DNA from: Escherichia coli O127:H6 str. E2348/69
GTDB lineage: Bacteria; Pseudomonadota; Gammaproteobacteria; Enterobacterales; Enterobacteriaceae
NCBI RefSeq assembly: GCF_000026545.1
Contig: NC_011601.1
Length of the DNA: 64,000 bases
Reading direction: 5' to 3' (one strand)
Shown piece after piece: positions 21,001 through 24,000 of the stretch (positions within the stretch are counted from its first letter, which is position 1; each line of letters begins with the position of its first letter). Made by a program: the position numbers.

Positions 21001-24000
21001 ACAGCGGCAAACGCACCTCTTATCTGGACTGCTTCACAACCGAAGTGGGTGAGAAATACACCGTCGATAATGAAGCGAAAATTGATATCAAAATGGCTGC
21101 ACTCAGGAAGGTGGAAGGATGACGATTATCGCTACACAGACCGGCGAACTGTCCGATGGTCTGGTTTTTAACGGCACCATTCATAAAAACTTTGAGCTGC
21201 GTCTGCCGGTCATGCGTGATAACGGGCAGGCACTGGAAGAAACTGAAGAACGCTTTCAGACAGTGGACGGCTTCGCGGCGGATTATTACTACCGCTGTGC
21301 GGTGATGGCGGCAACGCTGGTCCGTCTGGGGGATATTCCGCAGGAAGAACTGACGGCGGAGCTGTTGCACGACAACATGACGCCGGAAGATTTTAATATT
21401 CTGCTGGCATCACGCAACGTCCTGAAGGTAAAGCGGAACGGCGGGAATCCCGGCTCGCCGGACTCCGGCTCGCAGTCCTTATCCTCGGGCGCTACGGAAT
21501 AACCGAAGAACAAATCATGACCATGAGCCGTCCCGAGCTGGACGGCTGGCTTGCCGCCGTTGACAGGCTGAACGGCGGCGGCTCAGGAAGAAAGGACACC
21601 TCACAGACCACCCGCCAGTCATTTAAATCCCTCAGAAAGAAACGCAGAAAAGGTAAACAGAAAAATGGCCGGTAATTTCAAAGTTGGCATGACCCTGACT
21701 GCGAAGGACGAAGCCTCGCAGGTTCTGGAAAAGGGACAAAAACAGGTTATCAAAGCCACCGAAGGTGTAACAAAGGCAACCCGGAAGGCAGGCGCAGAGC
21801 AGACGCGTACCGGGCAGGAAAGCGTTAACAGCACGAAAAAGGCGGCAAAAGAGATACAGCGTGCCGCCCGTGCCCGGGAAACGCTCGGTATTCGTGCAGA
21901 ACGTGAAATCCGGCGTGAAATTTATCAGACGGTTGCCAGCTATAACCGTCTGGCCCGCGCCGGTTTTGAATCTGCGCAGGAGCAGGAGCGCGCCATGCAG
22001 GCCACCCGGGAAAAAGCCCGGGCACTCAAGCGTGAACTGGATGGCGTTACTCAGGCTCAGATGAAGATGGCGAAAACGCCTGTTATCCCTGAACCGGGGC
22101 GTTTTGCGCGTGCGGCTGCATTTGGCGGGAATGCCATGACAATAGGCGGCGGAATTATGGCAGGAGCCGCCATTATGACGCAACCAGTCAGAAATCAAAT
22201 GAGTTATGAACGTCAGCTCAGCATGATGGCGAACACGGCGTTCAGTGATGGTGGTCTGGAAGGCAGGCAGTTTGGGCGTGAAAAGCTGAAAAACAGTATC
22301 CGCGCGGCGGTAACGTATGGTGGCGGAACGAAAGAGGATGCAGCTGAAGCAATGAATGAGATGTTGGCCAGCGGCGCTTTTTCCTGGGATACCGCGAATA
22401 ATCTCTTACCGCAGATTATGAAATTTGCTACTGCATCCGGCGCATCTCCACGCGATCTGGTCACTATGGCGGCCAAAGCTAAACAAACATTTGGACTGAC
22501 AGATGACGACCTCCCGGCCATGTTTAATATGGCTGTCGCAGCAGGTAAAGCGGGTAATTTTGAGCTACGGGATATGGCGGAATATCTTGGACCTCAGATG
22601 GCATTAGCTGGTAACGCCGGAATGAAAGGACTGGATGGACTCCAGAAATTACTGGCATTTAATGAGGTCGCAGGGATTGCCGCAGGCAGCAGCAGTGAAG
22701 CAGGTAATAACGTTGTAAACCTGCTGGCCAAACTTTTCAGTAGTGAATCAGCAACAAGGGCGAAAAGCATCACGATTGATGGCAAAGGTATTGATCTACC
22801 TGGTACGTTGACCCGAGCTATGGAAAACGGCATTGATCCGATAGAAGCATTTTCACGCCTCACTGATAAAGTCACCGCGAACAACAAACAATATCAGGAG
22901 CTTCAGAAGCGTCTGGCAGCAACAAAAGACAAAGGCCAGCAGGACAAAATCCTAGAGTCTATGGCGAAAATTCTTGAGGGGTTCGGTGTTGGTGAGCTTG
23001 TTGGTGATATGCAGGCACTGAAGGCAATCCTGGCTTACAGGAATAACCCGGAATACCGAAAGCAGGTCGAAACTGAAATCAGTCAGCAACGCACCCTGCC
23101 GGAAGGTCAGCGCGCCGGAGATCTGGATTTTAAATTCATGTCAGGTACGAATGATTTTAAAACCGAACAGGCTAAAAACACGCTTGAATTTTCACAAATG
23201 GACAGCGTGAAAAAGCTGGCTGATGCGTCCGGTGCTGTGGCCGATGCCATAAGCTGGGCGGGTGAAAAGTTCCCGGGACTGACCACGGCAGTGGTGGGTG
23301 CCACGACCGCCATTGAAGCGATGACCGCAGCGGCCCTGACATGGGCCGGGATCAAAATCCTGACCGGGGGTAAACCCGGTGGCAAGGCTGGCGAGGTTGT
23401 CGGTGATGTCATTGAAAACACGGTCAAAAAAGGCAAAGGATTTAAATTCCCCGGCATCGCCGGTAGCCTGCTTTCTTTCGGTGGCACCGTTACGGCACTG
23501 GCCACCGCAACCAGCCCGGAGGAAGACGCCGCCGTCGAAGGAAGCGAAGAACGCTGGAAACGCATCCGCGCCCGATACACCCAGGAAGAAATCGACGCCG
23601 CCCGCAAAAAATACCAGCCATGGTGGCAGTTTGGGGAAGGCTATTCCACCGAAAACGAAGAATGGTTGAGGCGCTGGGAGGAAGACAGGAAAAAAGCCGC
23701 AGCTGATGCCCTGCCATCACCGGCGCAGGTTAACAAAGCCGCAGGAAACACAAAGCCTGAACCGGCATCAACTCAACCCGGACGCATCACCCAGCCGGAA
23801 TACCTCACGCACTGGGGACCACCTGCCAGTCCCATTAATTTCACCACACAACTGGTGCTCGATGGTCAGGTTGTGGCGGAGGCAGTGAACAAATACAACC
23901 TTCAGGACGGTAACAGAGGTACGGGAGGAACTTACTGATGGGCTGGGCTGAAAACCTGCAAAACGCTTCCTTTCGTGGCGTGCAGTTTGAGGTGCTGAAT

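What the first reader, a model, noticed from the sequence alone, without database searches (positions are those of the whole stretch)
21119..21675. Candidate -1 programmed frameshift in the tail assembly chaperone
The -1 frame is open from about 21397 through the chaperone stop at 21500-21502 to 21675, overlapping the tape-measure start. This is the G/GT-type architecture conserved upstream of tape measure genes. I could not find a canonical X XXY YYZ slippery heptamer by eye, so the shift site and mechanism are unresolved.
Basis: partly seen in the sequence, partly recalled or inferred. Interest (0 to 1): 0.4.

Follow-up and report, generated by a model that had tools for sequence, protein, structure and literature searches.

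The report
Tail chaperone -1 frameshift, non-canonical site
A Mu-like prophage of E. coli E2348/69 very probably makes a longer version of its tail assembly chaperone by a -1 ribosomal frameshift, the well-known lambda G/GT arrangement; the only unusual point is that the slip site has decayed to G_GUA_AAG, keeping just the A_AAG part.

Summary
The -1 frame is open from 21397 to 21675, across the chaperone stop (21500-21502) and into the tape-measure start (21665), and the overlap holds no canonical X_XXY_YYZ heptamer.

In all 58 related loci (31-100% identity) the -1 frame crosses the chaperone stop and ends at the tape-measure start, although the tape-measure frame itself varies.

Every relative has an in-frame A_AAG (A_AAA in one locus) at one homologous position. 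Distant relatives have A_AAA_AAG or G_GGA_AAG there. The window has G_GUA_AAG (21427-21433).

In eight relatives a -1-frame stop lies directly before the heptamer, which pins the site.

The 84 nt between the site and the first start codon (ATG 21517) evolve as -1-frame coding (changes by codon position 19/10/30). That frame has no start codon upstream of 21517 and almost no Shine-Dalgarno pairing.

A downstream hairpin (21439-21460) is possible but has no statistical support.

Verdict: an ordinary G/GT-type frameshift, unannotated in RefSeq, with a tetramer-type slip site. Interest is low to moderate.

The parts
20748..21122 (+). Tail tube gene (124 aa). Its stop overlaps the chaperone start (ATGA).
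   Evidence: phrog_185 tail tube, E 4.9e-35; ORF list.
21119..21502 (+). Tail assembly chaperone, zero-frame product (127 aa, gpG-like). Residues 107-127 form a Gly/Pro/Ser-rich tail predicted to be disordered.
21427..21433 (+). Proposed -1 shift site G_GUA_AAG. The shift-prone A_AAG tetramer is 21430-21433, and the next zero-frame codon is CGG.
   Evidence: It is homologous to A_AAA_AAG or G_GGA_AAG in distant relatives. An in-frame A_AAG or A_AAA is present in every locus. A -1-frame stop lies directly before the heptamer in L002, L008, L009, L010, L041, L046, L065 and L071.
21433..21675 (+). -1-frame extension (T-like part): 80 codons plus TAA. Joined to chaperone residues 1-105 it gives a 185-aa fusion. 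It has a helical core (AERRESRLAGLRLAVLILGRYGITEEQIMTMSRPELDGWLAAV), a variable linker and a basic C-terminal tail.
   Evidence: The -1 peptide aligns across all loci from the slip site onward. It shows the -1-frame codon-position pattern upstream of the ATG. phrog_3114, E 9.4e-19. AF2 of the fusion gives pLDDT 85.5 and a helix 89-124 across the junction.
21397..21432 (+). Upstream part of the open -1 frame. It is probably not translated in that frame. In relatives its length varies, from 0 to several hundred nt.
   Evidence: the start of the -1 open stretch varies, and in some loci it lies directly at the heptamer.
21439..21460 (+). Candidate stimulatory hairpin: CGGCGGG (21439-21445), 8-nt loop, CUCGCCG (21454-21460), 5-nt spacer. 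An optional outer stem pairs 21434-21437 with 21464-21467. An alternative small hairpin is CGGG-AAU-CCCG (21442-21452).
   Evidence: Free energy -10.9 kcal/mol, or -16.0 with the outer stem; z about -1.5. It lies in a 22-nt block (21440-21461) invariant in 10 clade members. There is one compensatory G-C to A-U change in L062, loop-only changes in L061 and L063, and the stem is broken in L059. The pair count is not significant, 74 of 500 shuffles. No excess stability over longer windows.
21517..21675 (+). The 52-aa ORF that RefSeq annotates as a separate hypothetical protein (WP_000178828.1). Here it is read as the C-terminal two thirds of the frameshift extension.
   Evidence: Annotation. Shine-Dalgarno pairing is only -1.0 kcal/mol, against -6.4 to -10.3 for the five neighbouring tail genes with a clear Shine-Dalgarno site and -3.9 for the tape measure. 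The Met position is Leu or Met in relatives.
21665..23938 (+). Tape measure gene (757 aa). Its ATG overlaps the end of the -1 extension by 11 nt.
   Evidence: PF10145, E 1.4e-21; phrog_794, E 1.2e-225.

Best explanation
The chaperone gene of this Mu-like prophage gives two proteins.

Most ribosomes read 21119-21502 and make the 127-aa chaperone, a folded domain with a disordered tail. A minority slip back one base at G_GUA_AAG (21427-21433). The tRNA-Lys on AAG re-pairs with AAA (21430-21432) and reading resumes at GCG (21433). These ribosomes continue to the TAA at 21673-21675 and make a 185-aa fusion: chaperone residues 1-105 plus an 80-residue helical, basic extension.

By analogy with lambda gpG/gpGT, the common part would bind the tape measure protein and the extension would recruit the tail tube protein.

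Shown here:
- the frame architecture and its conservation;
- the position of the site by homology;
- -1-frame coding constraint upstream of any start codon;
- the chaperone fold.

Inferred:
- that slippage really happens at this degenerate site and at a useful rate;
- that the mechanism is tetramer-type (A-site tRNA-Lys, or P-site tRNA-Lys while the rare CGG codon is awaited);
- that the GC-rich stem-loop 5 nt downstream helps;
- the protein functions.
For: 1. Context. The gene order is sheath, tube, chaperone, tape measure, then DNA-circularisation and baseplate genes, in a Mu-like prophage of E. coli E2348/69.

2. Frame conservation. In 58 of 58 related loci from Entero-, Beta- and Deltaproteobacteria the -1 frame is open across the chaperone stop. 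It runs 113-182 nt further and ends at the tape-measure start, while the tape-measure frame relative to the chaperone is 0, 1 or 2. The +1 frame shows no such regularity.

3. Shift site. An in-frame A_AAG (A_AAA in one locus) occurs at one homologous position in all loci. It is part of A_AAA_AAG or G_GGA_AAG in distant relatives and of G_GUA/G_GCA/A_GUA/A_GCA/G_GAA_AAG in the enterobacterial clade. In eight loci a -1-frame stop lies directly before the heptamer.

4. Coding constraint. The -1 peptide aligns from the slip site onward in all loci, whereas the zero-frame tail is low-complexity and 11-31 aa long. In the enterobacterial clade the same 66 nt differ by 3.1 aa in the -1 frame and 7.1 aa in frame 0, in 44 of 45 pairs. 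In the 84 nt before ATG 21517, minimum changes by -1-frame codon position are 19/10/30, p = 0.006. A TAA-to-TCA change in L023 is stop-to-Ser in frame 0 but synonymous in -1.

5. No alternative entry. There is no ATG, GTG or TTG in the -1 frame between 21397 and 21517. ATG 21517 has anti-Shine-Dalgarno pairing of -1.0 kcal/mol, against -6.4 to -10.3 for five neighbouring tail genes and -3.9 for the tape measure.

7. Literature. A_AA.G is by far the most shift-prone tetramer in E. coli, up to 5.6% with a strong stimulator, and tetramers are used by 87 of 490 IS1/IS3 elements (PMC4066793). Low-level frameshifting is what G/GT systems need, with a 30:1 product ratio in lambda (PMC5009743).
Against: - The heptamer is not canonical. 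After a -1 slip the P-site tRNA-Val would face GGU, a mismatch at the middle position.
- In the enterobacterial clade the P-site codon varies freely (GUA, GCA, GAA, GGA), so only the tetramer is conserved.
- In reporter assays tetramers without a stimulator were barely above background, 0.147% against 0.112% (PMC4066793).
- No downstream structure here is statistically supported: z is about 0 over 45-87 nt, and 74 of 500 shuffles match the covariation. One clade member, L059, breaks the proposed stem.
- The enterobacterial clade keeps an ATG at 21517/21523, so separate expression of a 52-aa peptide cannot be excluded.
- No protein in the 5.8-billion-sequence collection spans the junction. That is expected for gene callers, but it means no independent annotation exists.
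- There are no proteomic or reporter data.
Confidence: 0.8

Rival explanations
1. There is no frameshift in this clade. The region downstream of the chaperone is a separate small gene (21517-21675, 52 aa), as RefSeq annotates it. It would be translated from its own ATG, perhaps by termination-reinitiation after the chaperone stop 15 nt upstream. It could also be made in addition to the fusion.
For: - RefSeq and other gene callers annotate it this way.
- ATG 21517 and 21523 are conserved in the enterobacterial clade, which is exactly the clade with the degenerate heptamer.
- A bare tetramer is a poor shifter without a stimulator (PMC4066793).
- The chaperone stop lies 15 nt upstream of the ATG.
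Against: - Anti-Shine-Dalgarno pairing at the ATG is -1.0 kcal/mol.
- The 84 nt upstream of the ATG show the -1-frame codon-position pattern and far fewer -1-frame than zero-frame amino-acid changes. A gene starting at 21517 would not explain this.
- The conserved core RLAVLxLGRYGI lies upstream of the ATG.
- Many relatives have Leu instead of Met at that position and no start codon there.
- The strict -1 relation to the chaperone frame in 58 of 58 loci would be unnecessary for an independent gene.
Confidence: 0.1
2. The frameshift is ancestral and works in relatives with A_AAA_AAG or G_GGA_AAG. In the E. coli clade the site has decayed and the extension is a relic that is no longer made.
For: The heptamer is non-canonical, with a variable P-site codon, in the whole enterobacterial clade. 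No stimulatory structure is supported.
Against: - Within that clade (53-100% chaperone identity) the -1 frame stays open with no indel over about 240 nt.
- It shows purifying selection in the -1 frame both upstream (19/10/30) and downstream (15/8/29) of the ATG.
- The A_AAG tetramer itself is invariant.
Confidence: 0.05
3. The fusion is produced by transcriptional slippage (RNA polymerase adds a base in an A run), not by ribosomal slippage.
For: Distant relatives have runs of 7-8 A at the site (CAAAAAAAAG, GAAAAAAAG). Runs of that length can support polymerase slippage, which is my background knowledge; slippage is mentioned in PMC4066793.
Against: The window and its clade have only AAA at the site, far too short for polymerase slippage. 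The G_GGA_AAG relatives also lack a run.
Confidence: 0.02
4. The open -1 frame is a chance by-product of base composition and has no function.
For: 14% of all ORFs of at least 100 aa in the window, spurious ones included, have a comparable -1 stretch across their stop.
Against: P is about 0.005 from -1-frame stop density. The frame is conserved in 58 of 58 loci. The conservation is at the protein level, and phrog_3114 matches it.
Confidence: 0.01

Closest known systems
Phage lambda G/GT tail assembly chaperone frameshift, and the conserved frameshift of dsDNA phage tail assembly genes (Xu, Hendrix & Duda 2004, as cited in PMC5009743 and PMC2628397)
   Same: The gene lies between the tail tube (major tail) gene and the tape measure gene. 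A -1 overlap near the 3' end gives a short and an extended product. A_AAG is the decoding-site part of the motif; that lambda uses G_GGA_AAG is from my own knowledge. The fold is that of the HK97 homologue of gpG. Only a low shift rate is needed.
   Different: There is no detectable sequence similarity to gpG or gpT (no Pfam or NCBIfam hit). The phage is a contractile-tailed Mu-like phage. The heptamer is G_GUA_AAG, so P-site re-pairing is lost.
Phage Mu gp41 (Mup41) tail assembly chaperone, reported to use a -2 frameshift (PMC5009743; PMC2628397)
   Same: The tail module and gene order are the same Mu-type, and the chaperone is in the same position. There is weak profile similarity, including a K-L-x-D-G-x-P-F-G motif.
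   Different: Mu's extension lies in the +1 frame, reached by -2 (130 nt, around CGG GGG CGA). Here the extension is in the -1 frame in all 58 relatives. Homology is not established (hhalign probability 15%).
Phage P2 E/E+E' tail chaperone frameshift
   Same: A contractile-tail phage with a -1 frameshift in the gene before the tape measure (PMC5009743).
   Different: That P2 uses a canonical U-rich heptamer is from my own knowledge. No sequence relation was found here.
Tetramer-type (Z_ZZN) -1 frameshift signals of IS1/IS3 insertion sequences, A_AAG type (Sharma et al. 2014, PMC4066793)
   Same: Only the A-site tetramer A_AAG is conserved, and the preceding codon is free to vary. E. coli tRNA-Lys slips from AAG to AAA.
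   Different: IS3-type tetramers rely on a strong downstream pseudoknot or hairpin. Here a stimulator is only a candidate. The product is a phage chaperone, not a transposase.

Membership tests
G/GT-type tail assembly chaperone frameshift | Gene located directly between the tail tube (major tail) gene and the tape measure gene | tested here: met
   Tube 20748-21122 (phrog_185), chaperone 21119-21502 (phrog_508), tape measure 21665-23938 (PF10145, phrog_794).
G/GT-type tail assembly chaperone frameshift | A second reading frame overlaps the 3' end of the chaperone gene and extends to about the tape measure start, and this is conserved among relatives | tested here: met
   -1 frame open 21397-21675. 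Found in 58 of 58 related loci, with a 113-182 nt extension, while the tape-measure frame varies.
G/GT-type tail assembly chaperone frameshift | Canonical X_XXY_YYZ slippery heptamer in the overlap | tested here: not met
   None in the window. The homologous position is G_GUA_AAG. Relatives do have A_AAA_AAG or G_GGA_AAG there.
G/GT-type tail assembly chaperone frameshift | A shift-prone motif conserved at a fixed position in the overlap | tested here: met
   An in-frame A_AAG (A_AAA in L052) in every locus examined.
G/GT-type tail assembly chaperone frameshift | The extension is under protein-coding constraint in the shifted frame from the shift site onward | tested here: met
   Alignment of -1 peptides. 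Amino-acid differences 3.1 against 7.1. Codon-position pattern 19/10/30 upstream of the first start codon.
G/GT-type tail assembly chaperone frameshift | Chaperone domain related to known tail assembly chaperones | tested here: met
G/GT-type tail assembly chaperone frameshift | Two products made in a fixed ratio, both needed for tail assembly, neither present in the virion | not testable with these tools
   Needs Western blot or mass spectrometry, and genetics.
Mu gp41-type -2 frameshift | Extension encoded in the +1 frame, reached by a -2 shift | tested here: not met
   Mu has a 130-nt +1-frame extension. In the window the +1 frame runs only 61 nt past the stop and is not conserved.
Mu gp41-type -2 frameshift | Sequence homology to Mup41 | tested here: inconclusive
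   hhalign probability 15%, E 0.0017 over 89 columns. tblastn against phage genomes does not find Mu.
Tetramer-type Z_ZZN -1 frameshift signal | In-frame Z_ZZN motif without a re-pairable P-site codon | tested here: met
   A_AAG at 21430-21433. The preceding codon is GUA, GCA, GAA or GGA across the clade.
Tetramer-type Z_ZZN -1 frameshift signal | A strong stimulator (downstream hairpin or pseudoknot, or an upstream Shine-Dalgarno-like element at 10-14 nt) | tested here: inconclusive
   A hairpin at 21439-21460 (-10.9 kcal/mol, 5-nt spacer) lies in a 22-nt invariant block. However z is about -1.5, there is one compensatory change and one disruption, and 74 of 500 shuffles do as well. The only Shine-Dalgarno-like element (AAGG, 21425-21428) is too close to the site; the spacing rule is from my own knowledge.

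The most novel reading that the evidence does not exclude
In the enterobacterial branch of this chaperone family the tail-assembly frameshift no longer uses a two-tRNA heptamer. It uses a bare A_AAG tetramer whose preceding codon drifts freely (GUA, GCA, GAA, GGA). The loss would be compensated by a clade-specific, nearly invariant 22-nt GC-rich element 5-6 nt downstream (21440-21461) acting as an RNA stimulator, possibly helped by the rare CGG codon that follows the site. This would be a natural series in which one phage recoding signal passes from heptamer to tetramer-plus-stimulator.
Probability: 0.35. Interest if true: 0.45.

Novelty: new member of a known kind. Interest (0 to 1): 0.3.

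Why it matters
**Annotation.** RefSeq lists the 3' part as a separate 52-aa hypothetical protein (WP_000178828.1), and PHROGs lists it as a family of unknown function (phrog_3114). Both are better read as the extension of a frameshifted tail assembly chaperone. The 185-aa product is missing from protein databases.

**Frameshift prediction.** This family is a clean example where a motif search fails in one genome (G_GUA_AAG) but homology to canonical sites in relatives locates the shift.

**Recoding biology.** It shows how far a natural slip site can decay while the shifted frame stays under selection. It gives a testable case of a tetramer-type signal outside insertion sequences.

The phenomenon itself, a conserved frameshift before the tape measure gene, has been known since 2004, so the finding is not surprising to a specialist.

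Tried and rejected
- **Canonical heptamer search in the overlap.** None found in the window.
- **Other in-frame tetramers.** By reading the zero-frame codons, the only other candidate is G_GGC at 21487-21490. It is not conserved, and a shift there would skip the conserved core of the extension. Rejected.
- **Downstream RNA structure.** Folds of 45-87 nt are no more stable than shuffles in the window or in 38 relatives (z between -1.7 and +1.5). No structure is shared between clades. The pair count for the candidate hairpin is not significant. A pseudoknot between the loop CCGG (21450-21453) and 21465-21468 was considered by eye. It was rejected because the connecting loop is too short and the partner is not conserved (L003, L035).
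- **Upstream Shine-Dalgarno-like stimulator.** Only AAGG is present, immediately before the site. That is the wrong spacing for -1 stimulation (my own knowledge).
- **Sequence-family searches.** Pfam, NCBIfam and PDB sequence searches on the chaperone gave no hits; Pfam and NCBIfam on the extension also gave none.
- **DNA and tblastn search of 50,697 phage genomes.** Only four distant hits, none annotated with a frameshift.
- **Metagenome DNA-pattern scan for more clade members.** Sixteen loci came back. Most were E. coli-identical or unrelated, and only L065 and L071 were informative. It did not add covariation data.
- **Search for a database protein spanning the junction.** None found.
- **Crude chance estimate over all ORFs of at least 100 aa.** It is confounded by real neighbouring genes and spurious ORFs, so it was replaced by -1-frame stop density.
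Full report
**What the window is**

The 1.2 kb around the finding is 100% identical to the chromosome of enteropathogenic E. coli O127:H6 E2348/69, and 55 of 5,426 complete E. coli genomes carry it. RefSeq annotation and profile searches show a Mu-like prophage. The gene order is:

- Mu gpT-type head protein, and DUF1834 and DUF2635 genes upstream;
- tail sheath 19314-20735;
- tail tube 20748-21122;
- a 127-aa 'hypothetical protein' 21119-21502;
- a 52-aa 'hypothetical protein' 21517-21675;
- tape measure 21665-23938;
- DNA-circularisation protein, then baseplate genes.

PHROGs files the 127-aa protein under phrog_508 'tail assembly chaperone' (E 8.4e-40). It files the downstream frame under phrog_3114 'unknown function' (E 9.4e-19).

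**Check of the observation**

- The -1 frame has a TAA at 21394-21396 and is then open for 93 codons, to the TAA at 21673-21675.
- It crosses the chaperone stop (21500-21502) and overlaps the tape-measure ATG by 11 nt.
- There is no in-frame X_XXY_YYZ heptamer in the overlap.

Stops occur at 0.054 per codon in the -1 frame of the window's long ORFs. That gives P of about 0.005 for 93 open codons, and only 0.3% of open runs are this long. A cruder count over all ORFs of at least 100 aa is much less impressive (14%). The single sequence is therefore only suggestive.

**Comparative evidence for the architecture**

I collected relatives of the chaperone from three sources:

- 100,044 species genomes (11 loci);
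- IMG/VR (45 loci);
- one phage record.

Five more came from protein look-ups and two from a metagenome DNA-pattern scan.

In the first set (57 fetched loci plus the window itself), identity ranges from 31 to 100% and hosts include Enterobacteriaceae, Cupriavidus, Aquitalea, Polaromonas and Deltaproteobacteria. In every one of them the -1 frame is open across the chaperone stop. It continues 113-182 nt and ends at, or within a few bases of, the tape-measure start. The tape-measure frame relative to the chaperone is 0, 1 or 2, and the +1 frame shows no regularity. A fixed frame relation to the upstream gene, independent of the downstream gene, is what a frameshift fusion predicts. An independent small gene would not need it.

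**Locating the shift site**

When the overlaps are aligned by zero-frame codons, every locus has an in-frame A_AAG (A_AAA in one locus) at one homologous position, the L-K-x-K-R/L motif.

- Most distant relatives have CUC_AAA_AAA_AAG, which contains the heptamer A_AAA_AAG.
- Several relatives have G_GGA_AAG.
- The E. coli clade, including the window, has G_GUA_AAG (21427-21433).
- Other enterics have G_GCA_AAG, A_GUA_AAG, A_GCA_AAG or G_GAA_AAG.

In eight loci (L002, L008, L009, L010, L041, L046, L065, L071) a -1-frame stop codon lies directly before the heptamer. In two of these the zero-frame stop follows only 39 nt later. The shift can therefore only occur at that motif.

By homology the window's shift site is 21427-21433, and the A_AAG tetramer at 21430-21433 is the only conserved slippery part. 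The only other in-frame tetramer in the overlap, G_GGC at 21487, is not conserved and would skip the conserved core of the extension.

**Is the -1 frame translated in the clade with the degenerate site?**

This matters because the enterobacterial clade also has an ATG (21517). Four results bear on it.

1. *Conserved core upstream of the ATG.* The -1 peptide aligns from the slip site onward in all loci (KA..RE..LAGLRLAVLxLGRYGI.E..I..M/L-T/S..EL.GYL.A...), followed by a variable linker and a basic C-terminus. The conserved core RLAVLxLGRYGI lies upstream of the ATG. The zero-frame tail is a low-complexity Ser/Pro/Ala/Gly stretch of 11-31 aa.

2. *More change in frame 0 than in frame -1.* Within the enterobacterial clade, the same 66 nt after the site differ on average by 3.1 amino acids in the -1 frame and 7.1 in frame 0. 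The -1 frame is the better conserved in 44 of 45 pairs.

3. *Codon-position pattern.* In the 84 nt between the site and ATG 21517 (14 sequences, no indels), the minimum numbers of changes at -1-frame codon positions 1, 2 and 3 are 19, 10 and 30 (chi-square p = 0.006). The same pattern appears in the chaperone body in its own frame (34, 25, 57) and in the extension after the ATG (15, 8, 29). One example: TAA to TCA in L023 removes the zero-frame stop but is synonymous (AUA to AUC) in the -1 frame.

4. *No other way in.* The -1 frame has no ATG, GTG or TTG between 21397 and 21517. ATG 21517 has almost no anti-Shine-Dalgarno pairing: -1.0 kcal/mol, against -6.4 to -10.3 for the sheath, tube, chaperone, N and P genes, and -3.9 for the tape measure.

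The only way to translate a region that behaves as -1-frame coding is to enter it from the chaperone frame.

**Structure**

AlphaFold2 on an alignment of 26 conceptual fusions gives a confident model (mean pLDDT 85.5). It has two long beta strands and several helices. One continuous helix, 89-124, runs straight across the junction (K105/A106) with pLDDT above 89. Two more helices follow (130-151), then a disordered basic tail.

The zero-frame product has the same domain, but the helix stops at 106 and residues 107-127 are low-confidence.

**Mechanism**

In E. coli, A_AA.G is by far the most shift-prone tetramer: up to 5.6% with the IS3 pseudoknot, ranked A_AA.G >> U_UU.C and the rest. Without a stimulator, tetramers were barely above background (0.147% against 0.112%). 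Tetramers are nevertheless used by 87 of 490 IS1/IS3 elements (PMC4066793). G/GT systems need only a low rate; the product ratio in lambda is 30:1 (PMC5009743).

I therefore looked for a stimulator.

- A hairpin can form 5 nt after the site: CGGCGGG (21439-21445), loop AAUCCCGG, CUCGCCG (21454-21460). Its free energy is -10.9 kcal/mol, or -16.0 with an outer CGGA/UCCG stem.
- It lies in a 22-nt block (21440-21461) that is invariant in ten clade members, although these differ at about 15% of neighbouring positions.
- Four further members were informative. L062 has a compensatory G-C to A-U change. L061 and L063 change only loop bases. L059 breaks the 3' strand.
- Statistically this is not enough. 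74 of 500 shuffles reach the same covariation. The z-scores are -1.5 for the hairpin alone and about 0 for longer windows. An alternative small hairpin, CGGG-AAU-CCCG, fits all 14 sequences equally well. Dual coding could explain part of the invariance.
- No structure is shared with the distant clades.

The stimulator remains a hypothesis. So does a contribution from the rare CGG or CGA codon after the site, which I infer without a test. Transcriptional slippage is conceivable for relatives with A7-A8 runs but not for the window, which has only AAA.

**Comparison with known systems**

This is the arrangement described for lambda G/GT and generalised to tailed phages by Xu et al. 2004, cited in PMC5009743 and PMC2628397. 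Those papers note that phage Mu itself uses -2. I confirmed that Mu gp41 has its extension in the +1 frame (130 nt). The family studied here uses -1 throughout. Similarity between the two chaperones is weak (hhalign probability 15%, though with a shared KLxDGxPFG motif).

A recent prediction paper states that the canonical XXXYYY motif is absent from most annotated tail-chaperone frameshift overlaps (PMC10885494). A non-canonical site is therefore not exceptional.

No database protein spans the junction. RefSeq annotates two separate hypothetical proteins.

**Verdict**

The unresolved shift site can be placed at G_GUA_AAG, 21427-21433, giving a predicted 185-aa fusion.

This is a new, unannotated member of a well-known kind of recoding. 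It has a mildly interesting tetramer-type site and a possible clade-specific stimulator. Interest is 0.3. Confidence that a -1 frameshift fusion is made is about 0.8. Confidence in the detailed mechanism (tetramer plus hairpin) is about 0.35.

Noticed in passing
window 21517-21675: RefSeq annotates this as a stand-alone 52-aa hypothetical protein (WP_000178828.1). PHROGs holds it as phrog_3114 'unknown function'. Both are probably the C-terminal part of a frameshift fusion, so this is an annotation gap affecting a whole family.
   Followed up: yes
window 21440-21461: A 22-nt block (GGCGGGAATCCCGGCTCGCCGG) is invariant in ten clade members with 53-100% chaperone identity, including at positions that are wobble positions in one frame or the other. 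Dual coding may not fully explain this, and an RNA element is possible.
   Followed up: partly
L065 1847-2050 and L071 (reverse strand) around 1946: In two metagenome relatives, DNA around the MSRPELDGW part of the extension is almost identical to the E. coli clade. Their chaperone body is diverged, the site is a canonical A_AAA_AAG with a -1-frame stop directly before it, and the zero-frame stop comes 45 nt later. This suggests mosaic exchange within the gene pair.
   Followed up: partly
L080 (phage Mu NC_000929) 4053-4617: Mu gp41 has a 130-nt extension in the +1 frame beginning around GAA CGG GGG CGA. This is consistent with the published -2 frameshift and contrasts with the -1 frame used by all 58 loci of the family studied here.
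   Followed up: partly
window 21643-21675 and the C-termini of all -1 extensions: The extension ends in a conserved basic motif (F/I-K/V-S-x-R-K/R-K-K/R...) after a variable, probably disordered linker. Its stop overlaps the tape-measure start (ATGGCCGGTAA), which may couple translation of the two genes.
   Followed up: no
E. coli genome collection: Two of the 57 matching places in complete E. coli genomes lie on plasmids, not chromosomes, and one genome carries two copies.
   Followed up: no
window 21119-21122: The chaperone start overlaps the tail tube stop (ATGA), and the chaperone has a strong Shine-Dalgarno site (GGTGGAAGG). Tube, chaperone, extension and tape measure therefore form a tightly coupled translation unit.
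   Followed up: no
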